Positions 4,994 through 62,145 of a DNA stretch of 64,000 nt are shown in pieces. This DNA comes from an uncultured virus (IMG/VR IMGVR_UViG_3300044627_000710) (lineage: Duplodnaviria; Heunggongvirae; Uroviricota; Caudoviricetes), in IMG/VR virus record IMGVR_UViG_3300044627_000710. The stretch is one strand, 5' to 3'. How positions within the stretch are numbered: the first letter of the stretch is position 1; every line of letters starts with the position of its first letter. Position numbers and translations under genes: made by a program. The notes beneath the pieces were generated by a model. That model saw only the letters and a program-made list of their open reading frames with translations, made no database searches and was not told where the DNA came from.

Positions 4994-5198
4994 GAAGGGG
5001 CAGGGGTTCTTCATCCCTGCCCTAGACCTCGACGCCACGCGTGAGGCGGGGCTAGTGGACGCTGTCAGGCAGCGGGTGGTGGACGCGCACGCTATGTACG
5101 CCATCCACCAGGGCATGCAGGGTGTGCTGTTTTACCGGCACACCAAGCACGTCACATCTCCCTCAACTTTGCGGCGTCCGAAGCGTCCCGCACCATAG
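4971..5198 (+). CDS. hypothetical protein
   Basis: Overlaps primase stop; PWKTLEKGQGFFIP start; overlaps the convergent giant gene at its 3' end. Confidence 0.55.
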   Translation: MLPWKTLEKGQGFFIPALDLDATREAGLVDAVRQRVVDAHAMYAIHQGMQGVLFYRHTKHVTSPSTLRRPKRPAP

Positions 5199-8100: not shown

Positions 8101-11100
8101 GCGCTCGGTGGCAGCGTGGACGCCTTCGTGGATGAACGTGCGCTCGTTCAGACCGTACTTGGCATCCAGGCGGATGAAGGAACCGTCAGCCGCAGCCTGA
8201 CCGTATGCTGCCTGCCCATCCGGGTCACGCAGGTCTTTGACGATTTCGACGCGGGTGTTGCCCAGGAGCAGCTTCAGTCGGTCTGCAACAGCGCGGGCAA
8301 TCTCGGTGCTGCCCGTATCTGCCACGTTAGCTGCAACGACCGCTGCGCTCTTCTCGCTATCAACATCTTCTTTCAGCGCAGGCCCTTGCGACGCAGTCGC
8401 AGCCAGTTGCTGCAGCGTGTCAGGTTTATCAAACAGTGCGTCGAGGTCTTCGGTTCCGGTTTTCAGAATGCCGGTGTCCGCAACTTCTTCAGCGTCAAAC
8501 TCAGCGCGCTCCTGCTCAAGCGCCTTCTCTGCCAGTTCTTCACTGGTGAGTTCTTCTTCGCCCTCTTCTTCGCGGCGCTGACGCTCGACTTCGCTTTCTT
8601 TGGTGGGCTTGCGGCTGCGACGGTAATCCGTCAGCAGCATCTGCTCCAGTTCAGTCAGCGGCTCCTTGCGCTCTTGCTTGTCGCGAGCCTGCTCAACAAG
8701 GGTGAGTTCGGCAAGTCGAGCCTTCTCTTTGGCAGTTGGCGTTTTCTTCAGAAGCGCCTGCTTTTCCCGCTTAATCCGCGCGGCCTCTGTCGTTATTGCC
8801 GTTTCTTGCCCCACGCCCTTGCTGCTGTAGCGCGTGCCCTTGGGCTTGCGCTCCTTCTCAATCTCCGACTTAGTTGTGGCGGTGATATCCAGCTTGGGCG
8901 CGCCTTCACGTGCCGCAGCCTCGGCAAGTTCTTTCTGATTCAGGACGTCCTGAATTTCCTTGAGTTCGGCTTCGGTCTTGCGCTTGCGCGGCTTGGGCGG
9001 CTCAGCGACTTCTACTTCGCCACGATCAACCAGCCCCTTCAGCCACGCCTCACGACGCAGCATCTCAGACAGTGCTGCTTGATAGCCAACCAGACCCTTG
9101 GGCATTACCCGGGCGTTAAGCGCGTTGGTGACCGCGTCGTTGTATGCCTTCTCTAGTGCATTAACAATAGGCATCAAGTTGGCGCGAGCCTGTGACGTCT
9201 TAGCCGCACTATATGCACGCAACGCAGCTTCGTAGGGCGCTCGCTCCTTTACTCCTTCAACGGTCTGCGCACGAGCCTTGTCGTAGGCTTCCTTCAACGC
9301 CTTGGTGATCGTGGTGATGTAGGCGCGATAGCCCTTGAGCACTTGCTGCGGATTGCCCCGCACCTGCCGCATCTCGTCGGCCAAGATAGTGGGCGTGTCG
9401 TCATCCCGTGCCGCGCGCTGTGCGTCGGTAATGGGGTCGTACGCCATTGATCGCAGGGGCTGACCAAACCGATCCACACCCTCCGGCGCTTTCTGCTGAC
9501 GCTCAAGCGCAGCTTGCTGCGCAAGGTAGCCTTCGGTGCGCTTGAGATCGGCTTTGGCTCTGTCGGCGGCGTTTGCTGCGCGCCGCGCCGCCGCCTCTTG
9601 CGCGGCTGTACGCCCCTCGATGGAGCCAATCTCTTTGGTCAGCTTGGATGCCGCCGCTTGGGCAGAACGCAGTTCTTTTTTGGCTGCGGCAAGCGCAGCG
9701 CGATCCACCGCTTCCTGGCTTTCGTACTGATAGGCTTTGAGTTCGGCGTTGGTCAAACGCGCTATTGCGTCAACACGCGCCAGTGCCGCACCAATTGCGT
9801 CGAACTGTTGGGTCAGCGCGTTGATGTGTTTGCCGACAGCGGTCTTGCCCTCTTCCGCAACAAGCTGCTCCTTGAGCAGCGACTTGTCTTTGTCAGAGAT
9901 GTTGAACTTGTCGATGAAGTCCGACGCTTGATTGCGCGGAATCTTGAGTTCGACAAGCGCGGCACCCAGTTCACCCTGGCGCGCCACTGCGGTCAGCACG
10001 CTGCCAAAGTTTTCCTGCACGTTAGCCAGTTCTCTGCGCAGCGAATCGGGGTCAAGTCCGGCGCTGCCAAACTGTTTCTCGGCTGCACGCAGTTTTGCCT
10101 GCTGCTCCTCGGCAACTTTCAAGTACTCGCGGATTGCAGCGATGCGGTCGGTGATACCCGTCGTTCCTGAAACTGTAGCCGTCTCAGGAATCTCAAGGGA
10201 CTCAAGCGCACTCAATTCTTTCTTGAGCGCCCGAATCTGCGTGGCAGGCAGCATCTCTGCCCGCACGGCTTCAATATCGGCAATGACCGCGTTGAGCTTG
10301 GCAATCTTCTCGTTCAGTTCGTCAAGCTGATTACGCGCCCGCCCCAACTTCTTAGCGTCGGGTTCAAACTGTTTGCGCAGACGATCAGCCTCTGCGCTGT
10401 CGAGAAATCGCTGGAACCGACCAGGGGTAGCGCGCTCGGTGACGATCTTGGCCTGCTCTTCGGGGAACAAGCTCGTCTGCCCCATCTCACCTTCGCGTCC
10501 ACGCTCGGCCTGCTCCACAAACGGCTCAAGCTCGGCCTGGAGAGACAGCGGCAGCGCCTTGGTGCTGGGGCCGCGAAGAGTGCCGGGAACAAGTTGATCG
10601 CCCTCAACGCGAGTGGGCGTAAAGTCACGTGCGGGACGCTTGGTTACTGCAGCCTTGGCCTGCGCCATTTTGCGCAAGTTCTCGGGCACTCGGCCTTCTT
10701 CAAAGTCAGCAAAAGACTCAGCACGCGCCTGCTCGGGCTTCATGCCTGCGTTGACCTTCTGCTGATACAGCGCCTGCTTTATGATGTCTTCTGCCGTAGC
10801 ACTTTCAGTAGCGGCCACGTCCGCGCGGCCCTCAGCAGGGAATGCCTGCAACGTAGTCTTGCGACCTGCGCCAGGACGCGCCATGCCCTCTTCGCCGCTT
10901 TCAATACGACGAAGCTGTTCATCAAGCAGGCGGAAAAGGCTGCGTGTAGGCGCGGCTGCTTCACCTTCAGGTGTTATCTTTTTCGGACGGGTTACGTTTG
11001 CAATCTGCTCAATATCTACGAGCATTTTGAGAATCTGCTCGTCGGTTTGTTTTCCTTGCTTACCAAGATTTACCAGGGGAAGTTCTTTACCTTGCCGCAC

Positions 11101-13614
11101 ACGCACATCAGCCACGTCAGGCTTAATGTTTCTTTGTTCGTCAACAGGGCGAATGATCTCTACCGTAACTTCGCTGCCGTCTTCCAAGCGCGCAGGATAG
11201 GAAATCTTTGCTTCTTCCCCGCTTTTGGCAATTACATATCCTGGCGTAGTGGCACCAGTCGTGTATGTAACGCCCGGTTTGAACGCGCCGGGAACCTGCT
11301 CTAGTTCTGCAACCTCACGGTCTTTCTCAGGGAGCGAACGCTCCATCCGGCTCAGGAACTCGTACGCCTCGTCCGACAGTTTGTTACTGGCCATCGCCCG
11401 GGTGAGGCGCTCTTGCAGGTCTTCGCGGGTAACTTCACGCGCAGCAGGCTCAGCCTCACCAAACAGACGGAACTCGCCCTTGGCGCGGCGGGCTTCGCCC
11501 GTGGGCTTGAGGACGTTGCGCGGGACAAGCCCCTGCTCCCCGAGATCGGTGGTGATGTCGAACAGCCTGCGGTTGACCTCTTTGCCAAGCGCGTTCTGTG
11601 CACGCTGAAGCTGATCGGCGCGGCGCTCAAGGCGAACCTTCTCGTCGCCTTCAGCAGTCTTGGCCTTCTCCTGCACATCGCGCAGGAGTGCCGTCGCGCG
11701 GTCGTAGCGCATGGTGGCCGGAGCCATTGAAAGCTGCTGCGTCAGACTGGCCATCACGCGGTTCTGCTGCGCAGGCTCCGTCGCTGCCATCATCCTATCG
11801 ATGAGGTCTTCGGCTTCCTTTGGCAGCGCAAACTCAGGACGGGGGACAACATCGCCCATGCTGCGCTGGAAGCCCGCAACGTCTTGCTGCGGGGCAGTGC
11901 TGGCCTCAAAAGCCAAGCGAGCTTGTTCTTGTTGTGCCGTGCGTGCAGCCGCTTTCTCTTGGCGTTCTGCCTCGTCAGCCTTCTTCTGCTCTTCAAGTGC
12001 GTCGAGTTGCAGCTTCAACCCACCAAGAATTGCGTTGCTCTCACGCTTCTTAAGACCGGGAATTGGCTCGTTCGCTTCTACAAGCGCCTTCGCCATAGCC
12101 GGGTCTTGCATCAGGTAGGCCACATAGAACGCAGGGCGCTCATTGGCTTCTCTTGAGTCTACGTACGCCTGTTCGTTTGCAAGATTGATGCGCGACTGTG
12201 CGTACGTCAATGCCGGTGAGGGGGGTAGCCCGAAGTCTTCTTCGCCCGTAAACACCCGCTGTTGTGCGAGGGGGGACGTAAGGTCAACACCGGCCTGCTC
12301 CATCTGGTATTCCAGAGGGCTGAGCGCAGCAATACGCTTTTGTTCGTCGGTCAGTTCAGGCGGCTTCGGCGGTGCCGGGGGCACAAGCGACTTAACTCGG
12401 TTGTACTCGGGCGCCTGTTCCTTCAGTTGCGTCGCCAGTTCGTTGCGGCGCTTCTTCTGGGCCTCATAGGTTTGCTTCTCAGCAAACGAAGCGCCGGGAG
12501 GCAGCTTCTGCTTGAGCAGGTCGCCAAGGTCGTTGTACTCTTTCTGCAGCGCGTCATGCTGCTGCATGAAGTTGATCGCGTACTCAGGGGTCTGCTTCTC
12601 CGCCGCAGCCTTTTCTTCGGCCAGACGCTCCTGCTCGCGCTGCTCTTTCAGCGCCTTGCCACGCTCAAGTTCTTCCCTGACCTCGACCCGCTCACGGGCT
12701 GCACCGCGCTCGGCCACACGACCGGCAGCACCGATAGGCGCAAGCAGACTGGTCTGGTACGCCGTCTCACCATACTCCTTGAGCGCGTCTTCGCTGAGCA
12801 GCGGCAGTCCTGCCTGCACACGCTCCAGCATCTGCTGCGTGACTTCGGTGGGGATTTCGGCCAGTGCGCCAACCGCCGTGCCCTTGGTCAGCGTCTTGAG
12901 CAGCGTCTCTTTGGCGAGCTTTTCAGCGCCTTCTTCAGCGCCTTTCTCCAGCATCTTGGCAACACCGGGGCCCAGCGCCTTACCGGCCAGAGTGCGGCCT
13001 AGCGGAACAAAGGTAGCAGCGACGTCCAGGGCGGCTTGCGGAGCGGCTGCACCATAGGCAGCAGCACGGCTGATGGGTTGGCCCTCAGCGGCTTGGCGCT
13101 GAATGTTCCCTCCAGCCTGTTGGAAGAACGATGGCGCAACAGCACCGGCAATACCGCCAACAATAGCCCCCGGGACACCAAACGGTGCACCGGCCATAGC
13201 ACCCAGGCGCGCGCTTGCGAGCGTGGTGGCGATATTGGGCGCCTGCTCAGCCAAGGCATAAGGCACTTGGCTAATGACCTCTCCGGCAGCGGGCAGCAGG
13301 CCGCGCTCTTGGTAGGCTTTCTTGACCCGGTCAAGGCTGACCTGCTCAGCGTAGCGGCGCTGAATGTCTTCTTCCCGAAGACGCGCTTCTCTTGCCGCCT
13401 CCTCGGGGGCGACGACGCCTTTGACACCTGCGCGCAAGGCGCTCAGTGCAGACTCTGCACCTTTGCCGACAGCGGCAAGAACGCCTTCTGAGGGCTTGGG
13501 CTGCTGCGCGATCTGCTGCTTGACTACAGCAATGATCTGTTCTTCGGAAGCGCCTGCTGGCCCCTCCACATCGTAAATTCTCCCGTCCGGGCCTTGTACG
13601 CTGTAAATGGGCAT
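5152..13614 (-). CDS. giant internal virion/ejection protein (polyvalent-type; zincin HEXXH, C-terminal LPD38-like domain)
   Basis: 2820 aa; FIHEGVHAAT..SEFASEAL; C-terminal IPIPFEIG..PAIEVMTNYS..SPIKLE pattern; last gene of late operon. Confidence 0.75.
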   Translation of the reverse strand: MPIYSVQGPDGRIYDVEGPAGASEEQIIAVVKQQIAQQPKPSEGVLAAVGKGAESALSALRAGVKGVVAPEEAAREARLREEDIQRRYAEQVSLDRVKKAYQERGLLPAAGEVISQVPYALAEQAPNIATTLASARLGAMAGAPFGVPGAIVGGIAGAVAPSFFQQAGGNIQRQAAEGQPISRAAAYGAAAPQAALDVAATFVPLGRTLAGKALGPGVAKMLEKGAEEGAEKLAKETLLKTLTKGTAVGALAEIPTEVTQQMLERVQAGLPLLSEDALKEYGETAYQTSLLAPIGAAGRVAERGAARERVEVREELERGKALKEQREQERLAEEKAAAEKQTPEYAINFMQQHDALQKEYNDLGDLLKQKLPPGASFAEKQTYEAQKKRRNELATQLKEQAPEYNRVKSLVPPAPPKPPELTDEQKRIAALSPLEYQMEQAGVDLTSPLAQQRVFTGEEDFGLPPSPALTYAQSRINLANEQAYVDSREANERPAFYVAYLMQDPAMAKALVEANEPIPGLKKRESNAILGGLKLQLDALEEQKKADEAERQEKAAARTAQQEQARLAFEASTAPQQDVAGFQRSMGDVVPRPEFALPKEAEDLIDRMMAATEPAQQNRVMASLTQQLSMAPATMRYDRATALLRDVQEKAKTAEGDEKVRLERRADQLQRAQNALGKEVNRRLFDITTDLGEQGLVPRNVLKPTGEARRAKGEFRLFGEAEPAAREVTREDLQERLTRAMASNKLSDEAYEFLSRMERSLPEKDREVAELEQVPGAFKPGVTYTTGATTPGYVIAKSGEEAKISYPARLEDGSEVTVEIIRPVDEQRNIKPDVADVRVRQGKELPLVNLGKQGKQTDEQILKMLVDIEQIANVTRPKKITPEGEAAAPTRSLFRLLDEQLRRIESGEEGMARPGAGRKTTLQAFPAEGRADVAATESATAEDIIKQALYQQKVNAGMKPEQARAESFADFEEGRVPENLRKMAQAKAAVTKRPARDFTPTRVEGDQLVPGTLRGPSTKALPLSLQAELEPFVEQAERGREGEMGQTSLFPEEQAKIVTERATPGRFQRFLDSAEADRLRKQFEPDAKKLGRARNQLDELNEKIAKLNAVIADIEAVRAEMLPATQIRALKKELSALESLEIPETATVSGTTGITDRIAAIREYLKVAEEQQAKLRAAEKQFGSAGLDPDSLRRELANVQENFGSVLTAVARQGELGAALVELKIPRNQASDFIDKFNISDKDKSLLKEQLVAEEGKTAVGKHINALTQQFDAIGAALARVDAIARLTNAELKAYQYESQEAVDRAALAAAKKELRSAQAAASKLTKEIGSIEGRTAAQEAAARRAANAADRAKADLKRTEGYLAQQAALERQQKAPEGVDRFGQPLRSMAYDPITDAQRAARDDDTPTILADEMRQVRGNPQQVLKGYRAYITTITKALKEAYDKARAQTVEGVKERAPYEAALRAYSAAKTSQARANLMPIVNALEKAYNDAVTNALNARVMPKGLVGYQAALSEMLRREAWLKGLVDRGEVEVAEPPKPRKRKTEAELKEIQDVLNQKELAEAAAREGAPKLDITATTKSEIEKERKPKGTRYSSKGVGQETAITTEAARIKREKQALLKKTPTAKEKARLAELTLVEQARDKQERKEPLTELEQMLLTDYRRSRKPTKESEVERQRREEEGEEELTSEELAEKALEQERAEFDAEEVADTGILKTGTEDLDALFDKPDTLQQLAATASQGPALKEDVDSEKSAAVVAANVADTGSTEIARAVADRLKLLLGNTRVEIVKDLRDPDGQAAYGQAAADGSFIRLDAKYGLNERTFIHEGVHAATERVIQMPEDQLTDDQRRAKRELEELFEAYKKLRGATNANAKTSLSEFASEALSDDVMQAEMRQQKWTLRHMWDSFKSALLRLLGIKTPENMLEATLAAVDNLMTKVPRPTQADNALLAPKMLNRPRNLNPALAEADAFGRSIVAGNQSWWQPIRAKSSGLAMETGLVDRFAGFERLSKYMDKLKGTQMMYYLRMYDQRMNFTAQSVANGALDVREVQRRDGEREFIVESQTGPSLRQVATTLKGAARLVGDVDATSRLFTLYLAAKRAERVGFDKLDLRDPKITEQKLRDTVAQVRSVEGLQDIFDNARDIYNQYNENLVRFAQKAGVLSKKDADALLASKDYIPWYRERNGVAELALGGLTPIKLGNVKDMPHLQELVGGDKPILDFMISSVQNTNMMVDLALRNLATRNAMFELLDLGMAKITSKPVDGPEVVRFKHNGEDRYAVLETDTVEVGGKKVNTGVNADILVKGMEGIPLQTTGILRAVTIPTQLLRRAVTLNPLYMVRQLMRDSLAASIASGADFPPVLGALREIESSAKGTLERRGITGGQMFTGTQEDLSKIMRDLVGGRSALTKTLGALEWAGMEADALTRRAQYNSYIKQGMSEMEATLLSLESMNFNKRGASPSVHMANSLYPFFNAQVQGLNVLYRAMFGQITAGERARIKAKLITRGAMLMAATLAYAHAMQDDEAYKNALPAEKYGNWFIRLPGVSEPLRIPIPFEIGYIFKALPEALYNTIVNERGGEQAKEALLGILRNTIPGGSAYFIPQAMKPAIEVMTNYSMFTERPLLSAKEQALLPEYQYREKTTELAKLFGGAAGVSPIKLEALISGYFSTMGMALLQAASLPIPTKDTPEKATKRLSDMPVVGSAFQPNDARWVINSTYDALDDSRKVQSSFNELVNRGDKAEARALLDARANEYARAELAGYYRQEMGELTQVEAAIRASNKTPDEKRALLDRIQQVKIKLSSMVRDASDAAKLREM

Positions 13615-53824: not shown

Positions 53825-53949
53825 TTTGTTACTGAAAGGAGGTAATTTGATATTGTCAAAGGATGGACAGGGGGGTAAACTTCCCCTGTTCAAAGTCGTG
53901 GACGCGGTGTCCACAAGTTCTCGATTCATCAACTTCAAGGAGCAATGAC

Positions 53950-55086
53950 ATGGCTATCTATCTCAACTTCGAGCAGACCCTCAACGCGCTGATCAACCTC
54001 GGCGACAAGCGCACGATACTCGTGCAGGGCGAGAACGGCATCGGCAAGACCGCGCTGTTCCACGCAATGAAGCGGCATCCCAAGTTCATCAACCACATCG
54101 CGGTTGACCCCATCGACTGCACCCAGTTGTCCGATGGTTCGGTGTGGATGCCTGACATTGACCGTGAGCATGGCGTATCCCGTGAGTTGCCCAACGAGCG
54201 GTTCGGTCTGAGCCACACCAATCAGAAGGGTGTCAACGGTGCGCGTCCCATCCTTGTGTTCTTCGATGAGATTGCCAAGGCTCGTCAGTACATCAAGGAC
54301 ACCATCGCCCCCATCATCTATGAGCATCGACTCGGTGCGTATCACGCGCCTGATGGTTCGACTATCTTCGCGGCAACCAACCTTGCTATCGAGGGACTGG
54401 GCGACTCCATCCAAGCGCACCTGCGTAACCGACTCGTTGTCATCAAGATGCGTAAGCCCACTATGGAGGAGTGGGTCAAGTGGGCGTATGCCAACGGCAT
54501 CCACGAGTACATCATTGCGTTCTGCATGGAGTACCCGATGGTGTTCGACTCGTTCATCGACTACGAGCAGGGCGGCAAGTTCGAGGGCAGGAATCTGTCC
54601 AAGGACAACGGCCACATCTTCAACCCCAAGATTCAGCAAGATGCGTATGCTTCGCCGCGCTCCCTGCATGCGGCGTCTGACATATTGCACAAGTGCTTGA
54701 ATGTTGTTGACGACGACACGCTCGAAGCCCTGCTCACTGGTGCGGTGGGCGAGGTCACATCCAAGTCCATCGGTTCGTTCGTGCGCTTCGGCCATCAGGT
54801 CACGCCGTTCGAGCGTGTGCTCCACGATCCTGCCAACGCACCGCTGACTGACAACGCAGGTGTGCAGTTGGTGCAGGTGTTGCAGTTCATCAACCGCACC
54901 AAGTCTCGTGACGAGGCAGACAAGGTGCTCGTGTATGTGAACCGCATGAAGGAGGAGATGCAGTCGGTGTTCTGCACGCAACTTGCCAACAGCGCAGACA
55001 GCACGCCCAGTGCCCTGCACTTCGGCACTAACAAGAAGTTCGCGGACTTGCTTGCCAAGCACCGCATCTACTTCGGCACTAAGTAA
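53950..55086 (+). CDS. MoxR-like AAA+ ATPase
   Basis: Walker A GENGIGKT, Walker B FFDE, sensor AATN, LRNRL, SPRS. Confidence 0.85.
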   Translation: MAIYLNFEQTLNALINLGDKRTILVQGENGIGKTALFHAMKRHPKFINHIAVDPIDCTQLSDGSVWMPDIDREHGVSRELPNERFGLSHTNQKGVNGARPILVFFDEIAKARQYIKDTIAPIIYEHRLGAYHAPDGSTIFAATNLAIEGLGDSIQAHLRNRLVVIKMRKPTMEEWVKWAYANGIHEYIIAFCMEYPMVFDSFIDYEQGGKFEGRNLSKDNGHIFNPKIQQDAYASPRSLHAASDILHKCLNVVDDDTLEALLTGAVGEVTSKSIGSFVRFGHQVTPFERVLHDPANAPLTDNAGVQLVQVLQFINRTKSRDEADKVLVYVNRMKEEMQSVFCTQLANSADSTPSALHFGTNKKFADLLAKHRIYFGTK

Positions 55087-55109
55087 CCAACCAAGAAAGG
55101 AGCAATGCC

Positions 55110-56312
55110 ATGTCATTCGAGAAACTAACACTCCAACAGCGTGTGTCTGCGGCCAACATCGACTGCATGCGTCACCCTGCCTTCTGTCAGTTCACTGCCT
55201 ACATTGCGATGGGCAAGTCTGAGGTACAGACAGCGGTCAAGACTGCATGCACCAATGGCCGTGACAAGTTGTACGGCGCTGAGTTCATCAAGCCACTCAA
55301 CCGCAAGCAGATGCGCTACCTCGTCATGCACGAGAACCTGCATGTGGCCCTGCGTCACTGCACTGGCTACAAAGCGGTGTCGCGCAAGTACCCCAAGTTA
55401 GCCAACGTAGCCAAGGACTATGTGGTCAACGGCATCATCGAGGAGCTTGACCCCAACTTCCTGTTCGTCGAGCGCCCGACTCCAACCATCCTCATCGACC
55501 CCAAGTATTTCGGTTGGTCATTCCCGCAAGTCTTCAACGACTTGTTCAAGAACGGCAAGGGTGGTGGCGGCGAGGGTGGTGACGAGGATGGTGGCGGCGA
55601 CTTCAATGAACCCATCGACGCACACGAGGAGATGGAGTTCGCTGACGAGGAGGCCGAGCGCCAACACGAGCGCGAGATCGAGGACGCTGCTCGGCAAGGC
55701 CAGTTGATTGCCAAGCGCATGGCGGGTAAGGGTAGTGGTGGCCGGGACATCTTCGGCACTGCGGCGCACCGTGACACTGACTGGGTGTCTGCGTTGCAGG
55801 ACTGGATCGCATCGGTGTCCGAGGGTGACGACCTGTCTCGCTTCTGTCCTCCCAACAAGCGCATGCTTGCCGCAGGGTTCGTGATGCCTTCGCACTTCAG
55901 CGAGTCGCTCGGCGAGTTGGTCATCGCTTGCGATACCTCGGGTTCGATGGGGCCGTACTACACCAACATCTTCGGCGAAGTTGCGCGTATCTGCGAGACG
56001 ACTAAGCCTGCCAAGGTGCGCGTGCTGTGGTGGGACACGTCAGTATGTGGTGACCAAGAGTTCGCCCCTGGCGACTACGACCGCATCGCGTCCCTGCTCA
56101 AGCCTGCGGGTGGTGGCGGCACTACGCCCGATGTAGTTGTGCAGTATCTCAAGGAGAAGAAGATCAACGCCAAGGGTCTGGTCTGGCTAACAGATGGGTA
56201 CATCGGTTGCGACACGCCGCGCACCGACATGCCTGCGATTTGGGGAGTGGTCAATAACGATACGTTCGTGCCTCAGCACGGCAAGGTTCTTCACATCAAC
56301 GTCAACGTTTAA
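55110..56312 (+). CDS. metallopeptidase-VWA protein (DUF2201-like)
   Basis: TACTNG, HENLH, Gly/acidic linker, MIDAS DTSGS, GGGGT, LTDG. Confidence 0.85.
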   Translation: MSFEKLTLQQRVSAANIDCMRHPAFCQFTAYIAMGKSEVQTAVKTACTNGRDKLYGAEFIKPLNRKQMRYLVMHENLHVALRHCTGYKAVSRKYPKLANVAKDYVVNGIIEELDPNFLFVERPTPTILIDPKYFGWSFPQVFNDLFKNGKGGGGEGGDEDGGGDFNEPIDAHEEMEFADEEAERQHEREIEDAARQGQLIAKRMAGKGSGGRDIFGTAAHRDTDWVSALQDWIASVSEGDDLSRFCPPNKRMLAAGFVMPSHFSESLGELVIACDTSGSMGPYYTNIFGEVARICETTKPAKVRVLWWDTSVCGDQEFAPGDYDRIASLLKPAGGGGTTPDVVVQYLKEKKINAKGLVWLTDGYIGCDTPRTDMPAIWGVVNNDTFVPQHGKVLHINVNV

Positions 56313-56334
56313 TCAACTGTAAAGGAGCAAGCAC

Positions 56335-57222
56335 ATGAATACTCAAGTTACCCCCCGCTACAACATCGACACCTGCGCCATGCTCGTGGAGTTCAACGCT
56401 TCGGTGTGGACTGCGCGCAAGTTGGATCGCTCAACCACTGAGGAAGTTGTTACCAACAAGAACGCGGCGGCTAAGGATGCCGCACGTGTCAACAAGCACT
56501 TGCTTGCCGGGCGCAGTGAGTTGGATGTGGTGCAGCAACTGGTCAACCGTGTGCGTACCTTCGTGTACGACAACACCCTGCCGTGGTCTGACTCGGGCCT
56601 GCGCCTGTTGCCCACCAAGAACTTCATCAAGTTCACCGACAAGATGAACGACTTCGAGTCGGAGTTCGAGGCAACCGTCAACGCGTTTGTGGCTATCTAT
56701 CCCACGCTCATCACTGCTCAGGCGATGGCGCTCGGTGACATGTTCAAGCGCGACGACTACCCAACTGCCAATGAGATCGTTACCAAGTTCTCGTTCCGAG
56801 TCAACTACATGCCTGTGCCTACTGCGGGTGACTTCCGGGTTGACGTAGGCAATGCGGCTCAACAAGAATTGCAAACCAAGTTGGCGCAGCTTGCTGACGA
56901 GCGTGTCGAGGCGGCGATGGCAGATGTGCGTGCACGACTGGGCGACCATCTCAAGCGCATGTCTGACCGACTCACTACCGACACCGTGGCAGGTGAAGCC
57001 AAGGCGCGTAGGTTCCACGGCTCCCTTGTCGATGGCGCCTTGGAGTTGTGCGACTTGATCAAGACGCTCAACGTGGTGGGTGACGCCACACTCGAAGCAG
57101 CACGTCACGAGTTGGAGCAAGCACTGGTCGGTGTCACGCCTGACGAGTTGCGTAAGAACGAAGCCGTACGTGACGATACCAAGAAAGCAGTTGACTCGAT
57201 CCTTGGTCGGTTCAACTTCTAA
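56335..57222 (+). CDS. DUF3150-like protein
   Basis: WTARKLD..TLPW..GLRLLP..DYP..KF; follows the AAA/VWA pair. Confidence 0.6.
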   Translation: MNTQVTPRYNIDTCAMLVEFNASVWTARKLDRSTTEEVVTNKNAAAKDAARVNKHLLAGRSELDVVQQLVNRVRTFVYDNTLPWSDSGLRLLPTKNFIKFTDKMNDFESEFEATVNAFVAIYPTLITAQAMALGDMFKRDDYPTANEIVTKFSFRVNYMPVPTAGDFRVDVGNAAQQELQTKLAQLADERVEAAMADVRARLGDHLKRMSDRLTTDTVAGEAKARRFHGSLVDGALELCDLIKTLNVVGDATLEAARHELEQALVGVTPDELRKNEAVRDDTKKAVDSILGRFNF

Positions 57223-58452: not shown

Positions 58453-58727
58453 GCGGCGACCACAACGCAAACCAGAAGCCCAAGCGAGTCAGAGCAACCA
58501 AAGGACTGTTCGATGACGTACCCCTCCACAACCCAGACCGAGACAAGGCTTGGGAGCGGATCATCAAGCGCAAAGACATGAAGGCGATGATGAAGAAGGG
58601 CGAAGGGTTCAAGTTCCCGCTTGATGGTTCCTACGACCTGTGGTGCATCGCATGGAGTTTGGCATGGGGCGCAGGCGCAAAGGCCGGATGGGAAGCGCGT
58701 GAAGAGTACGAGAAGGAGAAGAAATGA
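58449..58727 (+). CDS. hypothetical protein
   Basis: ATGA overlap; MSGDHN start. Confidence 0.6.
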   Translation: MSGDHNANQKPKRVRATKGLFDDVPLHNPDRDKAWERIIKRKDMKAMMKKGEGFKFPLDGSYDLWCIAWSLAWGAGAKAGWEAREEYEKEKK

Positions 58728-58760
58728 GCAAGATCAACAACCAACTGAAAGGAAACTGAA

Positions 58761-58991
58761 ATGACCAAGACCATTAAAGACAACGATGACGGCGCACGTG
58801 TTTTCGCCGATGGCCGTAGCATCACCATTGGCAAGGGGCGCATCCTGTGGGGCACCGCCACGCAAACGAGCCGCAACCTGATCGTGGAAGAGGGGTGGGT
58901 GCTGCCCGGTGGTCAGCGCACAAAAAACTACGATGTCGCGCAAGCCTACGCTCGCTGGATCGACGCGCAGTGCAGAGTGTGGGGTCGTTAA
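58761..58991 (+). CDS. hypothetical protein
   Basis: AAGGA RBS; GWVLPGG. Confidence 0.6.
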   Translation: MTKTIKDNDDGARVFADGRSITIGKGRILWGTATQTSRNLIVEEGWVLPGGQRTKNYDVAQAYARWIDAQCRVWGR

Positions 58992-58995
58992 CAGT

Positions 58996-59190
58996 ATGAA
59001 GTGCCCAACTTGCCAAGCGAAAACACACACCCTGTCAACGCGGACGATGCTCAACGGACGTAAGCGCAGACGTTACCAGTGTGACAACGGACATCGCTTC
59101 ACAACGCACGGCACAAGCGTAGACCTGCGACTCAAGCACAACATAGAACAACACAAAAACGACGAAAAGATCACCATGATCGGCGGCTAG
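58996..59190 (+). CDS. NrdR-N-terminal-like zinc ribbon protein
   Basis: MKCPTC..TR..RRRYQC.NGHRFTT. Confidence 0.7.
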   Translation: MKCPTCQAKTHTLSTRTMLNGRKRRRYQCDNGHRFTTHGTSVDLRLKHNIEQHKNDEKITMIGG

Positions 59191-59330
59191 GATGAATCAT
59201 GTGCTCAACACGCGCCCGGTAGATGTTCGTGTTGGGAACAAGCGCAACGCACCTAGTCGCTTAAAACCTGCGTTGCGCCATTGCTCGGCTGCGGCGGGGG
59301 GCGCAGAATCTACCCATCCCCCCATCTACA
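59183..59330 (+). ncRNA. candidate double-pseudoknot structured RNA
   Basis: Three stems and two loop pairings in the gap upstream of VRR-NUC/PolA (see findings). Confidence 0.55.
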
Positions 59331-59340
59331 AGGACAACAA

Positions 59341-59625
59341 ATGGCAAGCACACCAGAGGTCAAAGTCAAGAAGCAAATCCGCAAGATGTTGGATGAAGCC
59401 AAGGCTTACTACGCCATGCCCATCGGAACGGGCTACGGCAACTCGGGCGTGCCTGACTTCCTCGTTTGCCACAACGGACGCTTCGTGGGCATAGAGGCCA
59501 AGGCGGGAAAAAACAAACCCACCGCTTTGCAGGAGTTGCACATGGAGCGCATACGAAACTGCGGGGGCACTGCGTTGGTCATCAACGAAGACAACCTGCA
59601 CGAACTTAGGGAGTTGCTTAAATGA
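59341..59625 (+). CDS. VRR-NUC domain nuclease
   Basis: PEVKVK..GVPDFLVC..GIEAK..PTALQ..GG. Confidence 0.85.
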   Translation: MASTPEVKVKKQIRKMLDEAKAYYAMPIGTGYGNSGVPDFLVCHNGRFVGIEAKAGKNKPTALQELHMERIRNCGGTALVINEDNLHELRELLK

Positions 59626-59900
59626 GCCTGTTCAAAACTGAGAAGGAGATTGAGATGCACGTAGAACAAATGACCCCAGATCAGCGTGACCACTTCAAGT
59701 TGGTCATATCCAAACTGATCGAGTGCTACACCGACGAGGAGAAACATGCGGTGGTGTTGATTGGGAACAAGTCCCCGGCAATGATGGTGCTGTGTATCAA
59801 CGCTACCGAAATGGAAGCTGCATCCTTGTTGCAAGCCGCTGACAACCACATGCAGTACAGAGTGACTGAAGATGCGCCGCCCAAGGAGATGTTTAATTGA
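59622..59900 (+). CDS. hypothetical protein
   Basis: Overlaps both neighbours in the operon. Confidence 0.65.
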   Translation: MSLFKTEKEIEMHVEQMTPDQRDHFKLVISKLIECYTDEEKHAVVLIGNKSPAMMVLCINATEMEAASLLQAADNHMQYRVTEDAPPKEMFN

Positions 59901-61867
59901 GCGCCCCGTTCGACCGCATCCTCGTCATCGACTTCGAGACAGCGTGGGACAGGAAAGACTACACCCTGTCCAAGATGACCACAGAGGAGTACGTGCGCGA
60001 CCCACGCTTCAAGGCATGGGGGTTGTGTTGGAAAGAAGTTGGGCAGAACGCATACCCGATGTGGGTGCGGGGCGATGCTATTGAAGAGTGGGCAAGCTAC
60101 ATTGATTGGAGCCGCACTGCTGTGCTCGCACACAACGCCCAGTTCGATGTGACCATCCTGTCCTGGCGCTACGGTATCCACCCCGTCTTCATCTTCGACA
60201 CGCTGTCGATGGCACGTGCACTGCGCGGAGTTGAGGTGGGCAACAGCCTTGCCAAGTTAGCTGAGGACTTTGGTTTGCCACCAAAGGGCAAGGCCGTGCA
60301 CAGTACCGATGGCATGTTGGACGAGATCAGCGAAGAAGTTGAGCGTGAGTTGGCTGAGTACTGCGCGCACGACACTGTCTTGTGCGAAGAGATATTCAGT
60401 CGCCTGCGCCCCGGCTACCCGACCAAGGAGTTGCGGCTCATCGACATGACGCTCAAGATGTACACGCGGCCTTTGCTTGAACTTGATACAGAGATGTTGA
60501 GCAACGCCATTGAAGAAGAAAGGAACGCACGTGAAGAACTACTACAGAGGCTCGGCGTGGATCAGGCTGTACTTGCGTCGAACGAACAGTTTGCTGAAAT
60601 CCTTCGGACCCTTGGGGTGGAGCCGCCAACGAAGATCAGTAAGACTACAGGTAAAGAGACACTCGCGCTTGCTAAAAATGACGCGCTCTTTCAAGCCCTC
60701 AGAAATGGGGATCGGGAAGACGTTTCGCTTATCTGCGAAGCCCGACTCAAGGTCAAGTCCACAAGCGAACGAACAAGAGCGCAACGTTTTCTGGACATCG
60801 CATCGCGTGGCAGGCTCCCGGTTCCTCTGAGTTACTACGGAGCCACAACTGGCAGATGGACTGCGGCCAAGGGCAGCGCCATCAACATGCAGAACTTGAA
60901 GCGCGGATCGTTCCTGCGTAACGCAATCATGGCGCCGCCGGGGCACGTGCTTGTGGCGGGTGACTTGTCGCAGATCGAGCCTCGGGTGCTTGCTTGGCTT
61001 GCTGACTACCAAGACATGCTCGACATCTTCAAGGCCGGGGGCGATCCTTATGCCGCCTTCGGTTCGCAGATGTTCAACATCCCTGGTCTGACCAAAGACT
61101 CCCACCCTGACCTGCGCCAGTCTGCCAAGTCGGCGTTGCTCGGGTGCGGCTACGGGTTGGGGTGGGCATCCTTTGCTCAGCAACTTCTTACTGGCTTCCT
61201 GGGTGCGCCGCCTGTGCGGTACGAGAAGGAGTTTGCCAAGACACTAGGGGTAAACCGGGAGTACGTTGAACGCTTCCTTGAGTGGGAGGACAACGAGAAA
61301 CGTCTTTTGGAGATACCCCACACGTGCACTGAGAAAGAACTTTTGGTGCACGCGCTTGCTGCCAAGAAGATCATCGACGCCTACCGTGCCACTGCATGGC
61401 CCGTGGTGGCGCTGTGGGACTACTTTTCAACTTTGATTCAACGAAGCCTTGCAGACGGCGAAGAAGTGGTGTACAAATGCCTTACGTTCCGCAAAGGCGA
61501 GATTGTGCTGCCCAGCGGCATGAGCCTGCTCTACCCCGACCTTCGACAAAAGAAGGACTCTCGGGGCAGAAGGCAATGGGTGTATGGGCCTGACGAGACG
61601 AAGCTGTATGCGGGAAAGATCACGAACAACGTGGTGCAGGGCACTGCGCGGATCGTGATGACGGACGGGATGCTCAGAGTGGCGAAGCGTTACCCGATTG
61701 TGGGGACGGTGCACGACGAGTTGATTGCTGTTGCGCCTGAAGAAGAGGCAAGTGACGCGAAGACTTGGGTCTTGGCGCAGATGACTATGGAGCCGAGCTA
61801 CATGCCGGGGATACCCCTGGCCGCTGACGGTGGTGCACACAGACGATACGGACTGACAAAGAAATGA
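59897..61867 (+). CDS. family A DNA polymerase with 3'-5' exonuclease
   Basis: IDFET, HNAQFD, YCAHD; TGRW, MQNL, DLSQIEPR, KSALLGCGYG, VHDE; TTG start after AGGAG. Confidence 0.92.
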   Translation: MSAPFDRILVIDFETAWDRKDYTLSKMTTEEYVRDPRFKAWGLCWKEVGQNAYPMWVRGDAIEEWASYIDWSRTAVLAHNAQFDVTILSWRYGIHPVFIFDTLSMARALRGVEVGNSLAKLAEDFGLPPKGKAVHSTDGMLDEISEEVERELAEYCAHDTVLCEEIFSRLRPGYPTKELRLIDMTLKMYTRPLLELDTEMLSNAIEEERNAREELLQRLGVDQAVLASNEQFAEILRTLGVEPPTKISKTTGKETLALAKNDALFQALRNGDREDVSLICEARLKVKSTSERTRAQRFLDIASRGRLPVPLSYYGATTGRWTAAKGSAINMQNLKRGSFLRNAIMAPPGHVLVAGDLSQIEPRVLAWLADYQDMLDIFKAGGDPYAAFGSQMFNIPGLTKDSHPDLRQSAKSALLGCGYGLGWASFAQQLLTGFLGAPPVRYEKEFAKTLGVNREYVERFLEWEDNEKRLLEIPHTCTEKELLVHALAAKKIIDAYRATAWPVVALWDYFSTLIQRSLADGEEVVYKCLTFRKGEIVLPSGMSLLYPDLRQKKDSRGRRQWVYGPDETKLYAGKITNNVVQGTARIVMTDGMLRVAKRYPIVGTVHDELIAVAPEEEASDAKTWVLAQMTMEPSYMPGIPLAADGGAHRRYGLTKK

Positions 61868-62145
61868 AAGAAGTTGTGCTGATTGACTACGCGATGCCCT
61901 TGATGCGGGTGGAGCGTTTAGCCAAAGAGATTCATGACTTGTGCCTTGAGGACAAGTATGAAGAGGCGCGGGAGACTGCCATGCAGTTGGTTGTGGAATC
62001 CCGCTTGTTGCAAACCACGCTCAGATACATGAGCGAAGAAAAGGAGAAGCGATATGCAGTTGCCAAAAACAATCAAGGTAAGCCGGACAACGTACAGCGT
62101 CCAGCAACCAAAAAGTCTGCCGCGAATGGCGCTCGGGCACATTGA
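61864..62145 (+). CDS. hypothetical protein
   Basis: ATGA overlap with polymerase stop; LIDYAMP. Confidence 0.55.
   Translation: MKEVVLIDYAMPLMRVERLAKEIHDLCLEDKYEEARETAMQLVVESRLLQTTLRYMSEEKEKRYAVAKNNQGKPDNVQRPATKKSAANGARAH

What the first reader, a model, noticed from the sequence alone, without database searches (positions are those of the whole stretch)
59183..59330. Double-pseudoknot RNA candidate in front of the nuclease-polymerase operon
Seen: most of this ~150-nt gap can be paired. Stems are P1 CTCAACACG 59204-59212/CGTGTTGGG 59228-59236, P2 GCGCAACGCA 59242-59251/TGCGTTGCGC 59269-59278 (perfect) and P3 G6 59296-59301/C6 59318-59323. The P2 loop CCTAGTCGC (59252-59260) pairs with upstream GCGGCTAGG (59183-59191). 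The P1 loop GGTAGAT (59218-59224) pairs with ATCTACC (59308-59314) in the P3 loop. An alternative partner, CATCTAC (59323-59329), abuts the AAGGA RBS of VRR-NUC. I did not recognise hammerhead, twister, pistol or HDV cores. Inference: an unnamed riboregulator, ribozyme or switch linked to replication gene expression.
Basis: partly seen in the sequence, partly recalled or inferred. Interest (0 to 1): 0.75.

Follow-up and report, generated by a model that had tools for sequence, protein, structure and literature searches.

The report
Conserved triple-pseudoknot phage RNA element
The gap between two genes of an uncultured lake-water phage folds into an intricate knotted RNA that is conserved in well over a hundred related phage sequences, matches no catalogued RNA family, and still has no known job.

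Summary
Comparison with relatives adds a sixth helix: S1, CTGCG 59289-93 with CGCAG 59302-06. S1 turns "P3" into an H-type pseudoknot.

The window's own fold is no more stable than shuffled sequence (z -0.2). The support comes from homologues.
- I collected 138 distinct copies from viral and metagenome contigs.
- On a plain MAFFT alignment, 84% of cells pair, against 40-48% when partners are slid. On two model-based alignments the figure is 90%.
- Every helix, including all three pseudoknots, shows compensatory changes.
- G-U pairs outnumber A-C three to one, so the sense-strand RNA is what folds.
- The element is non-coding and occurs once per complete genome (5 of 5).
- It has no match in Rfam 15.

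It starts at the stop codon of whatever gene lies upstream and ends 17-45 nt before the next start codon. That next gene is usually a small nuclease heading a chain of overlapping genes that includes DNA polymerase.

Function is not shown. My best guess (0.4) is a cis-acting, factor-binding leader on the early transcript. Rivals are a ribozyme, an antitermination RNA and an RNA stabiliser.

The parts
58996..59190 (+). Upstream ORF (64 aa), an Ogr/Delta-type zinc-ribbon regulator. Its stop codon TAG 59188-59190 lies inside the first helix strand of the RNA.
   Evidence: Pfam Ogr_Delta E 6.7e-08. PHROG 603 transcriptional regulator E 6.6e-06. Sequence.
59183..59323 (+). The whole structured RNA element (141 nt), from the 5' strand of PK1 to the 3' strand of S2.
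   Evidence: Single covariance-model hit in the window at 59157-59342, + strand, 65.3 bits (the window was in the seed alignment). Family statistics.
59183..59191 (+). PK1 5' strand, GCGGCTAGG. It pairs with the P2 loop.
   Evidence: 9 bp including one G-U. In the family, 9 of 9 PK1 pairs show compensatory changes. PK1 was not part of the model used for alignment.
59204..59236 (+). P1 hairpin. Arms are 59204-12 and 59228-36. Apical pairs are G59214-U59226 and C59215-G59225. The loop nucleotides 59218-24 (GGTAGAT) form the PK2 5' strand.
   Evidence: I2. All P1 stem pairs covary except the invariant C-G.
59242..59278 (+). P2 hairpin. Arms are 59242-51 and 59269-78. The loop nucleotides 59252-60 (CCTAGTCGC) form the PK1 3' strand.
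   Evidence: I3, 10 of 10 complementary. 12 of 12 P2 pairs covary in the family.
59289..59306 (+). S1 helix, new here: CTGCG 59289-93 with CGCAG 59302-06. It encloses GC and the G6 run 59296-59301, which is the S2 5' strand.
   Evidence: S1 is 99-100% paired in the family and 3 of 5 pairs covary (CG/AU/UA/GC types). At least 18 changes of S1 type on a tree.
59308..59314 (+). PK2 3' strand, ATCTACC, in loop 3 of the S1/S2 pseudoknot. It pairs with the P1 loop.
   Evidence: I5. The variable pair is A-U 43, U-A 23, G-C 9, G-U 1, other 1, and A-U 32, U-A 29, G-C 6, G-U 2. It has the second-highest mutual information of all column pairs.
59318..59323 (+).
   Evidence: S2 is 94.8% paired and its outer two pairs covary (GA/UC, AG/CU, GC/CG types).
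59323..59329 (+). It is not part of the conserved element.
   Evidence: Present in 1 of 78 copies, the window only.
59330..59343 (+). Ribosome-binding site AAGGA 59330-34 and start codon ATG 59341-43 of the downstream gene. These lie outside the fold.
   Evidence: In the family the start codon lies 17-45 nt after S2 in most copies, commonly 21-23 nt.
59341..62145 (+). Chain of genes joined by 4-nt stop/start overlaps: small endonuclease 59341-59625, ORF 59622-59900, family-A DNA polymerase 59897-61867 (TTG start), ORF 61864-62145.
   Evidence: overlaps ATGA, TTGA, ATGA. Pfam DNA_pol_A E 3.3e-29. PHROG 93 endonuclease E 3.4e-16.

Best explanation
**What it is (near certain, about 0.95).** It is a member of a previously uncatalogued family of structured RNAs carried by uncultured freshwater phages. 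The sense-strand transcript of the intergenic gap folds into two H-type pseudoknot domains.
- The 5' domain is PK1 + P2, with hairpin P1 sitting in its first loop.
- The 3' domain is S1 + S2.
- The two domains are clamped together by a 7-bp helix between the P1 loop and loop 3 of the 3' pseudoknot (PK2).

**How it works (inferred, about 0.4).** It acts in cis on the early polycistronic mRNA as a factor-binding leader. The factor could be a protein, a small ligand or the translation machinery itself. The leader sets expression of the gene block that follows; in this window that block is the overlapping chain of nuclease, ORF, DNA polymerase and ORF.
- The folded 3' pseudoknot ends about 20 nt before the start codon. 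That places it at the 5' edge of an initiating ribosome, followed by an unpaired A/U-rich stretch carrying the ribosome-binding site.
- Control would therefore be by binding or entrapment at that site, not by hiding the ribosome-binding site.
- The stop codon of the upstream gene is built into the first helix. Each ribosome that terminates there must therefore open PK1 transiently.

**Shown:** the structure, strand, conservation, position and copy number. **Inferred:** any regulatory effect and any bound factor.
For: **Structure.**
- Searches show pairing and covariation far above the slid controls in three alignments.
- PK1, PK2 and S2 were not in the alignment model and still pair in 70-100% of cells.
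- 14 of the 15 column pairs with the highest mutual information belong to the proposed structure.
- Changes are repeated on a tree: PK2 at least 12, S1 at least 18, S2 outer pairs at least 9.

**RNA, sense strand.**
- G-U/U-G 226 against A-C/C-A 75 among 3759 paired cells.
- All 78 model hits are single and on the strand of the downstream ORF.

**Non-coding.**
- 58 of 78 copies have stops in all three frames.
- Lengths of the 76 full copies are 139-158 nt, and all 78 split 22/23/33 by length mod 3.

**Position.**
- A downstream start codon was found in 77 of 78 copies, 17-45 nt after S2 in most.
- The upstream stop sits at the same alignment column inside PK1 in 48 of 78 copies and 31 of 55 new copies.
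- That column is used in 9 of 19 blastp clusters of upstream proteins.

**Copy number.** One copy in each of 5 of 5 genomes rated 92-100% complete, and one in the window.

**Downstream chain.** The genes are joined by 4-nt overlaps.

**Precedent.** T4 gene 32 mRNA is controlled through a pseudoknot just 5' of the gene (passage of PMC10690425 seen; details recalled).
Against: - No expression platform was found. No covariation links the 18 nt after S2 to the element.
- Only 18 of 138 copies have a run of 4 or more T within 14 nt after S2.
- The window's alternative partner is unique to it.
- The downstream gene varies: nuclease in 57 of 78 copies and in 29 of 60 new copies. Other cases have a VIT+VWA protein, a PD-(D/E)XK exonuclease, a polymerase-exonuclease-like ORF, DUF2201_N or unknown small ORFs. 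This fits a gene-specific autogenous operator poorly.
- In the L119/L123 clade a near-consensus sigma-70-like promoter lies between the element and the next gene. Transcripts from that promoter would lack the element.
- 23 of 81 nuclease loci show no element, so it is dispensable.
- No partner gene co-occurs with it within 2.5 kb.
- There are no expression or probing data.
Confidence: 0.4

Rival explanations
1. It is a new class of self-cleaving (or otherwise catalytic) RNA. It would cut the polycistronic early transcript between modules, leaving a structured 3' end on the upstream message and a 5'-hydroxyl end on the downstream one.
For: - The fold is compact and multiply pseudoknotted, with invariant nucleotides in the core: GUAGAU/AUCUAC and the G5/C5 runs.
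- It sits in an intergenic position, in sense orientation, with changing flanking genes.
- It shows presence/absence polymorphism among related phages.
- No expression platform was found.
- Small ribozymes are common in phage genomes (recalled; the theta-ribozyme papers appeared only in the search listing).
Against: - No Rfam ribozyme model matches the window or 8 diverse members.
- The order of helices differs from HDV-like, twister and pistol folds as I recall them.
- A cut 5' of the stop codon in PK1 would leave a non-stop upstream message.
- Cleavage is untested.
Confidence: 0.2
2. It is a processive antitermination (or Rho-blocking) RNA, working like HK022 put or the Bacillus EAR element. 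The nascent fold would bind the RNA polymerase that made it and carry it through terminators into the replication genes.
For: - It lies inside the operon, in sense orientation, directly after the stop codon of small early or regulatory genes: a zinc ribbon here and HTH-looking ORFs elsewhere (the HTH reading is by eye, not tested).
- It is independent of which gene follows.
- There is one copy per genome, on the early strand.
- Strong sequence invariance would fit binding to a conserved host machine.
- No ribosome-binding-site occlusion was found.
- Recalled parallels: lambda nutR and HK022 putR lie just after cro.
Against: - No excess of intrinsic terminators lies downstream. My scan gave 0.14 per kb downstream against 0.15 per kb upstream in 154 loci.
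- The tool's scan of 48-64 kb found 23 terminator-like sites against 17.3 +/- 4.5 expected, none convincing on the + strand after the element.
- It has no likeness to put (two stem-loops, recalled) and no Rfam hit to EAR.
- Rho-dependent sites cannot be predicted here.
Confidence: 0.15
3. It is an RNA stability or processing element. The knotted fold would block exonucleases or 5'-end-dependent decay, acting as a 3' cap for the upstream message and/or a 5' stabiliser for the replication-gene message, in the manner of viral exonuclease-resistant RNAs.
For: - The 5' end is tucked into a pseudoknot, and an apical loop is tied to a 3' pseudoknot.
- The element starts exactly where translation of the upstream gene ends and fills the whole intergenic gap.
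- It works with any flanking genes.
- It is compatible with the promoter after the element in the L119/L123 clade.
Against: - Simple hairpins suffice for this job in bacteria (recalled), so the invariant core and three pseudoknots are more than needed.
- There are no data on RNA ends or half-lives.
- The host and its RNases are unknown.
Confidence: 0.12
4. It is a DNA-level or replication element: an origin-linked primer RNA, or protein-binding inverted repeats, at the head of the replication genes.
For: - It is single-copy and next to the replication genes.
- The cumulative GC skew of the window has its minimum at 54-58 kb, close to the element.
- Invariant G and C runs recall primer-forming transcripts (recalled).
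- The GTAGAT/ATCTAC pair alone could also be read as inverted protein half-sites.
Against: - The 3:1 excess of G-U over A-C pairs and rapid compensatory change in five helices of unrelated sequence fit single-stranded RNA, not duplex DNA sites.
- The skew signal is shallow and confounded by the strand switch of genes at about 48.5 kb.
- The position among genes varies between phages.
Confidence: 0.05

Closest known systems
T4 gene 32 mRNA translational operator (pseudoknot bound by gp32)
   Same: An H-type pseudoknot in the leader of phage replication or recombination genes, followed by an unpaired A/U-rich stretch that carries the ribosome-binding site. The site is not occluded by base pairing.
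   Different: This element is much larger: two pseudoknot domains plus a bridging helix. It is not upstream of a single-strand-binding protein gene, and the downstream gene changes between phages. No binding protein is known. The gene 32 operator has no Rfam model (stated in PMC10690425), so no model comparison was possible.
Processive antitermination RNAs (HK022 put; Bacillus EAR / epsC motif)
   Same: A cis-acting, sense-strand structured RNA placed inside an operon just after a coding region and ahead of a long gene block. EAR also contains a pseudoknot (recalled).
   Different: It shows no sequence or helix-order likeness and no Rfam hit. No terminators were shown downstream. Polymerase binding is untested.
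Pseudoknotted self-cleaving ribozymes (HDV-like including phage theta ribozymes, twister, pistol, glmS)
   Same: A compact fold with several pseudoknots and invariant core nucleotides. It is found in intergenic regions of phage genomes. As in pistol (recalled), a hairpin loop pairs with a downstream strand that is itself enclosed by another helix.
   Different: The helix order is PK1a-P1-P2(PK1b)-S1a-S2a-S1b-PK2b-S2b, which matches none of them as I recall their topologies. Their Rfam models do not match. No cleavage site is known.
Exonuclease-resistant RNAs of flaviviruses (xrRNA)
   Same: The 5' end is drawn into a pseudoknot, and an apical loop is paired to a 3' strand, giving a closed, knot-like topology (recalled).
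   Different: xrRNAs are built on a three-way junction and come from eukaryotic RNA viruses. No resistance assay has been done here, and no homology is claimed.
Bulk catalogue of about 10,000 candidate structured RNAs from IMG/VR (Fremin et al. 2023, PMC10690425)
   Same: It draws on the same kind of data (viral contigs from metagenomes, including freshwater) and the same kind of object (conserved intergenic structures with covariation).
   Different: I could not find this motif in the catalogue. No entry is tied to VRR, Hjc or Holliday-type nuclease domains in the tables I could search. The alignment archives (files 1 and 2) were unreadable, so an anonymous entry cannot be excluded.

Membership tests
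Any Rfam 15 family (4227 models) | A cmscan score reaching the family's gathering threshold, or at least a low E-value. | tested here: not met
   Window 58500-60000 at E <= 10 gave three weak hits, none inside 59183-59340. Eight diverse members at E <= 1 gave 0 hits.
HDV-like ribozymes | A nested double pseudoknot with strand order P1-P2-P3-P3'-P1'-P4-P4'-P2' and cleavage at the 5' end of P1 (recalled definition). | tested here: not met
   The helix order derived is different. No Rfam HDV model matched. Catalysis is not testable here.
Twister / pistol / hatchet / twister-sister / hammerhead ribozymes | The conserved core nucleotides and helices captured by their Rfam models. | tested here: not met
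   No match at E <= 10 in the window or at E <= 1 in 8 members. Rfam models do not encode pseudoknots, so a very distant likeness could be missed.
Riboswitch (generic kind) | A conserved, complex aptamer-like fold consistently placed in the 5' leader of genes. | tested here: met
   Searches support the fold. A start codon lies 17-45 nt downstream on the same strand in most of 78 copies.
Riboswitch (generic kind) | An expression platform: a terminator or anti-terminator, or pairing that hides the ribosome-binding site. | tested here: not met
   No covarying pair involves the 18 nt after S2. A T-run of 4 or more follows S2 in only 18 of 138 copies. The alternative partner is unique to the window.
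Riboswitch (generic kind) | Specific binding of a small ligand. | not testable with these tools
   This needs in-line probing or calorimetry with candidate ligands.
T4 gene 32-type autogenous translational operator | A pseudoknot 5' of an unstructured region that carries the ribosome-binding site. | tested here: met
   The S1/S2 pseudoknot ends 17 nt before the ATG in the window. The tail after S2 shows no conserved pairing.
T4 gene 32-type autogenous translational operator | It sits upstream of the gene whose protein binds it (a single-strand-binding protein in T4). | tested here: not met
   The downstream gene is a small endonuclease here and varies elsewhere. No co-occurring partner gene lies within 2.5 kb.
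put / EAR antitermination RNAs | The family's own structure: put has two stem-loops (recalled); EAR is defined by its Rfam model. | tested here: not met
   The architecture is different and there is no Rfam hit.
put / EAR antitermination RNAs | It lies in the transcript ahead of terminators that it suppresses. | tested here: inconclusive
   The position inside the early operon fits. No clear intrinsic terminators lie downstream. Rho-dependent sites cannot be predicted.
The new family described here | P1 with loop YN-GUAGAU, an S1/S2 H-type pseudoknot with loop 3 carrying AUCUAC-N', and (in most copies) P2 whose loop pairs with the strand at the upstream stop codon. | tested here: met
   The window has all six helices and aligns over the full model (the window was in the seed, so that score is not independent). 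It scores lowest among the full-length copies (65.3 bits).

The most novel reading that the evidence does not exclude
The element is a new kind of cis-acting RNA device that reads translation of the upstream gene. The stop codon is built into its first helix in the main architecture, and in two variant architectures an extra 5' hairpin carries or abuts the stop. A terminating ribosome therefore opens the 5' pseudoknot and toggles the whole knotted fold. The fold in turn acts on the machinery entering the replication genes. It might modify RNA polymerase against termination, as put RNA does, or it might cleave itself. Either outcome would be a new class of antitermination RNA or of ribozyme, found only in phages.
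Probability: 0.15. Interest if true: 0.9.

Novelty: new variant of a known kind. Interest (0 to 1): 0.72.

Why it matters
Large, multiply pseudoknotted RNAs with invariant cores and strong covariation are the class from which new riboswitches, ribozymes and polymerase- or ribosome-binding RNAs have come. It is single-copy and sits at the entry to the replication genes. Its architecture, two H-type pseudoknots clamped by a loop-loop helix, matches nothing in Rfam 15. It now has clear boundaries, a consensus, a covariance model and more than 130 natural variants, so it is ready for probing, cleavage, ligand and reporter tests. A functional answer would show how an uncultured phage group times or protects expression of its DNA polymerase block.

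Tried and rejected
**Folding and structure prediction**
- Thermodynamic test on single sequences: z-scores were -0.21 and -0.08 for the two strands of the window, and -3.29, -1.58, +0.11, -0.90 and -0.89 for five members. Nested folding cannot score the pseudoknots, so this does not discriminate.
- RNAalifold on the MAFFT alignment recovered only 11 pairs: inner P1 and S2.

**Motif counts and signal scans in the window**
GCGCAACGCA gave 11 hits against 12.9 expected, and CATCTACC 44 against 30.5.
- The promoter/terminator scans gave nothing on the + strand around the element and no excess over 48-64 kb.
- GC skew has a shallow minimum at 54-58 kb and is confounded by gene orientation.
- ARAGORN found no tRNA or tmRNA in the window.

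**Genomes, collections and sequencing runs**
- The window's own genome is not held. The nearest record, G001, lacks the region.
- Sequencing runs: no RNA holder listed. I did not use read laying, because the holders are DNA contigs.
- The genome contigs pattern scan returned 120 rows. None of the 80 loci fetched matched the model.
- Cultured phages gave no blastn match to the window region or to L062. The closest polymerase is 33% identical. The model found nothing in Rhizobium phage RHph_TM3_14A or Pseudomonas phage KPP25 (0 of 2).
- The partner-gene search within 2.5 kb of 80 loci found no family specific to element-bearing loci beyond clade effects.

**Literature and earlier findings**
- Three searches found no description of this motif.
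- PMC10690425: I saw passages and searched supplementary tables 3-6 without a match. Its alignment archives could not be read.
- The preprint 10.64898/2026.09.22.753630 concerns other RNAs (passages).
- Earlier findings of this scan: nothing returned.

**Hypotheses rejected**
- Translation of the gap is rejected. 58 of 78 copies have stops in all three frames (the other 20 keep one frame open), lengths are not multiples of three, and the nuclease N-terminus M(A)(S)TPE is conserved from the ATG.
- A ribosomal hop or readthrough joining the two ORFs is rejected. The in-frame continuation after TAG meets another TAG after 21 codons (read). A matching take-off/landing codon appeared only in one clade (by eye).
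Full report
**1. The observation**

The window has a 150-nt gap, 59191-59340. It lies between a 64-aa Ogr/Delta-type zinc-ribbon ORF (58996-59190; Pfam E 6.7e-08) and a 94-aa ORF starting at ATG 59341.

- P1, 9 bp with one G-U.
- P2, 10 perfect bp.
- G6 with C6.
- The P2 loop with 59183-91, 9 bp with one G-U.
- The P1 loop GGTAGAT with ATCTACC.
- The second copy CATCTAC next to the AAGGA ribosome-binding site.

On its own this is not more than chance. The minimum free energy of the region is matched by 84 of 200 shuffles (z -0.21). The opposite strand does as well (z -0.08).

**2. Relatives**

A search of viral contigs with the downstream protein gave 166 relatives, of which 80 loci were kept. 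L001 is identical to the window.

Reading their upstream sequences showed a homologous element in most of them, with visibly compensating differences. A motif filter found it directly upstream in 53 of 81 loci, counting the window.
- Four more loci (L014, L016, L034, L071) carry it one small gene further upstream.
- L025 holds a truncated copy.
- The remaining 23 show none in the DNA held. One of these, L056, has no upstream flank.

Two pattern scans added further copies.
The covariance model confirmed 77 of the 80 fetched loci.
- In all I hold 138 distinct copies.
- The same 17-letter pattern in bacterial and archaeal genomes gave only chance matches: 0 of 80 fetched loci fit the model.

**3. 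Structure**

This is S1, in the window CTGCG 59289-93 with CGCAG 59302-06, and it encloses the G-run. Together with G6/C6 (S2) it forms a classical H-type pseudoknot. Loop 3 of that pseudoknot carries the ATCTAC strand.

The full architecture has three parts.
- A 5' H-type pseudoknot. PK1 is the strand at the upstream stop codon paired to the P2 loop, and P2 is the second stem. Hairpin P1 sits in its first loop.
- A 3' H-type pseudoknot (S1, S2).
- A 7-bp bridge (PK2) between the P1 loop and loop 3.

On a structure-blind MAFFT alignment of 76 distinct copies (A1), the 51 pairs gave these results:

| Measure | As proposed | Controls |
|---|---|---|
| Cells paired | 84.1% | 40.5-48.3% with partners slid 1-3 columns |
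| Covariation score | 0.310 | 0.083-0.114 slid; 0 of 500 shuffles reach it |
| Cells changed on both sides | 443 | 145-158 slid |
| Pairs with any double change | 36 | shuffled mean 34.3; 86 of 500 shuffles reach it |

The last row is the weakest measure.

A covariance model was built from P1, P2 and S1 only (R1). It realigned 78 copies (A2) and 77 metagenome copies (A3; 70 distinct, 60 new).
- A2: 90.1% paired against 39.9-47.8%, covariation 0.408 against 0.068-0.095.
- A3: 89.6% paired, covariation 0.461 against 0.076-0.099.

The three helices that were not in the model behave alike.
- PK1 is 81.5% and 70.3% paired, with 9 of 9 pairs compensating.
- PK2 is 99.4% and 100% paired. Its one variable pair reads A-U 43, U-A 23, G-C 9, G-U 1, other 1 in A2, and A-U 32, U-A 29, G-C 6, G-U 2 in A3.
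- S2 is 94.8% paired in A2, with its two outer pairs compensating.

Two further checks agree.
- An unbiased mutual-information scan put 14 pairs of the proposed structure among the top 15 column pairs.
- On a tree built without the trait columns, the PK2 pair needs at least 12 changes, S1 at least 18 and outer S2 at least 9. Recombination is not modelled.

There are caveats.
- A2 and A3 are fitted to P1, P2 and S1.
- My search patterns and filter required the GTAGAT, GGGGCG and AATCTAC words. Their invariance is therefore partly ascertainment.
- Against that, the model found no divergent copy in the 24 nuclease loci that failed the filter.

**4. RNA, sense strand, non-coding, single copy**

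- G-U/U-G pairs number 226 against 75 A-C/C-A among 3759 paired cells. That asymmetry is expected only if the sense strand folds as RNA.
- All model hits are single per locus and on the strand of the following ORF.
- 58 of 78 copies have stop codons in all three frames. Lengths of the 76 full copies are 139-158 nt, and lengths of all 78 split 22/23/33 modulo 3.
- Five of five genomes rated 92-100% complete (58-66 kb, two with terminal repeats) have exactly one copy. The window has one.
- The window's copy scores lowest among the full-length copies (65.3 bits).

**5. Setting**

The window looks like most of a phage genome.
- Structural genes are on the minus strand from about 5 to 48 kb.
- Early and replication genes are on the plus strand from 48.7 kb onward, continuing at 1-5 kb.
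- The plus-strand genes are a MoxR-type ATPase, a DUF2201/VWA protein, DUF3150, small ORFs, the zinc-ribbon regulator, the element, a small endonuclease, an ORF, a family-A polymerase, an ORF, a PD-(D/E)XK exonuclease, a helicase and a primase/helicase.
- The endonuclease is PHROG 93, E 3.4e-16. Pfam VRR_NUC reaches only E 0.2 and Hjc E 0.16.
- The four genes after the element are joined by 4-nt stop/start overlaps.

The same DNA is held at 72% or more of sampled words in 16 lake-water metagenome studies, beside three possible source samples.

The nearest cultured phages share 33% polymerase identity. Two of them were checked and both lack the element.

**6. Boundaries**

*Upstream.* The upstream ORF ends inside the element.
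- The stop codon occupies the same alignment column of PK1 in 48 of 78 copies and 31 of 55 new copies.
- It lies within 18 nt of the first PK1 column in 73 of 78 copies and 47 of 55 new copies.
- This holds in 9 of 19 blastp clusters of upstream proteins.
- The last codon is then G(G/A)C, fixed by pairing.
- In the window, TAG 59188-90 sits at positions 6-8 of the 9-nt strand.
- In two variant architectures, an extra 5' hairpin carries or abuts the stop instead (L050 clade and L119 clade; read by eye).
- My ORF rule picks the longest frame ending near PK1. The concentration at one column is therefore the finding, not the presence of a stop.

*Downstream.* A start codon follows S2 by 17-45 nt in most copies, commonly 21-23 nt. 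The next gene is the nuclease in 57 of 78 copies. That set is partly nuclease-anchored. It is the nuclease in 29 of 60 new pattern-anchored copies. Elsewhere the next gene is a VIT+VWA protein, a PD-(D/E)XK exonuclease, a polymerase-exonuclease-like ORF, DUF2201_N or an unknown small ORF.

**7. What it does**

Nothing here shows function.

I found no expression platform.
- No covarying pair reaches into the 18 nt after S2.
- Only 18 of 138 copies have a T-run of 4 or more after S2.
- No gene within 2.5 kb tracks the element beyond clade effects. The zinc-ribbon ORF family occurs in 19 loci, 18 of them without the element.

I rank the explanations as follows.
- **Cis-acting, factor-binding leader of the following gene block: 0.4.** The pseudoknot sits at the edge of the initiation site and is followed by an open A/U-rich ribosome-binding region, as in the T4 gene 32 operator. 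The head-of-chain position would pass control on to the polymerase.
- **New self-cleaving RNA: 0.2.** This fits the changing neighbours, the presence/absence pattern and the invariant core. No known core is matched.
- **put/EAR-like antitermination or Rho-blocking RNA: 0.15.** The position right after the stop of small early genes fits. No terminators were found downstream.
- **Stability element: 0.12.**
- **DNA-level or primer function: 0.05.** The G-U excess argues against it.

The near-consensus promoter that follows the element in the L119/L123 clade argues against a pure translational leader in that clade.

**8. Known families**

- Rfam 15 has no match for the window at E <= 10 or for eight diverse members at E <= 1.
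- Three literature searches found no description.
- The IMG/VR catalogue of about 10,000 candidate structured RNAs (PMC10690425) may hold the motif anonymously. I found no entry tied to VRR, Hjc or Holliday-type nuclease domains in the tables I could search. Its alignment archives were unreadable.

I therefore treat it as a new class within the known kind 'conserved structured phage RNA', not as a member of any named family.

**9. Verdict**

The structure and its novelty stand; the proposed switch does not; the function remains open.

Noticed in passing
window 59341-62145: Four consecutive genes (small endonuclease, 92-aa ORF, family-A DNA polymerase with a TTG start, 93-aa ORF) are joined by 4-nt stop/start overlaps (ATGA, TTGA, ATGA). 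This suggests translational coupling down the chain.
   Followed up: partly
L119, L123, L093 (after the element); L092, L095, L162: A near-consensus sigma-70-like promoter (TTGACA, a 16-nt spacer, TATCAT in L119) follows the element in one low-GC clade. The same TTGACA-led word recurs at other loci of what seems the same phage group.
   Followed up: no
L050, L052, L107, L128, L101, L136 (5' of P1): This clade has an extra small hairpin between the upstream stop codon and P1. Its stem length varies by one G-C pair and its loops differ. P2 loops are short and PK1 is doubtful. L177 lacks P2 and PK1 altogether, and L093 is a truncated copy. The 5' domain therefore looks accessory to a core made of P1 plus the S1/S2 pseudoknot.
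   Followed up: partly
L018, L020, L038-L059 group (18 loci): Relatives that carry the Ogr-like zinc-ribbon ORF lack the element. The nuclease start follows a short ORF whose stop TAG overlaps the ribosome-binding site. The window is the only locus with both the zinc-ribbon ORF and the element, and its element is the most divergent.
   Followed up: partly
window 53863-57222: A three-gene module lies upstream of the replication genes: a MoxR-type ATPase (PHROG 1297), DUF2201_N + DUF2201/VWA, and DUF3150. In some relatives the element sits in front of genes of this module instead (L155 DUF2201_N; L360 VIT+VWA).
   Followed up: partly
window 5152-13614 (minus strand): A single ORF of 2820 codons lies in the structural block. 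It was not examined.
   Followed up: no
L441 (Rhizobium phage RHph_TM3_14A) 1453-1853 and 2626-2760: The nearest cultured relative has similar gene order (metallopeptidase-domain protein, hypothetical proteins, polymerase, RecB-family exonuclease). It has unannotated gaps of 400 and 134 nt ahead of the polymerase. The model finds no copy there, and the gaps were not examined further.
   Followed up: no
window 58574-58640: A weak match to the fluoride riboswitch model (11.7 bits against a gathering score of 34, E 5.4) lies inside a predicted ORF. I take it as chance.
   Followed up: no
L099, L081, L141, L184, L110, L034, L339 and others (18 of 138 copies): In some clades the S2 stem is followed within a few bases by a run of 4-6 T, giving a terminator-like look. 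Most copies (93 of 138) have runs of 2 or fewer.
   Followed up: partly
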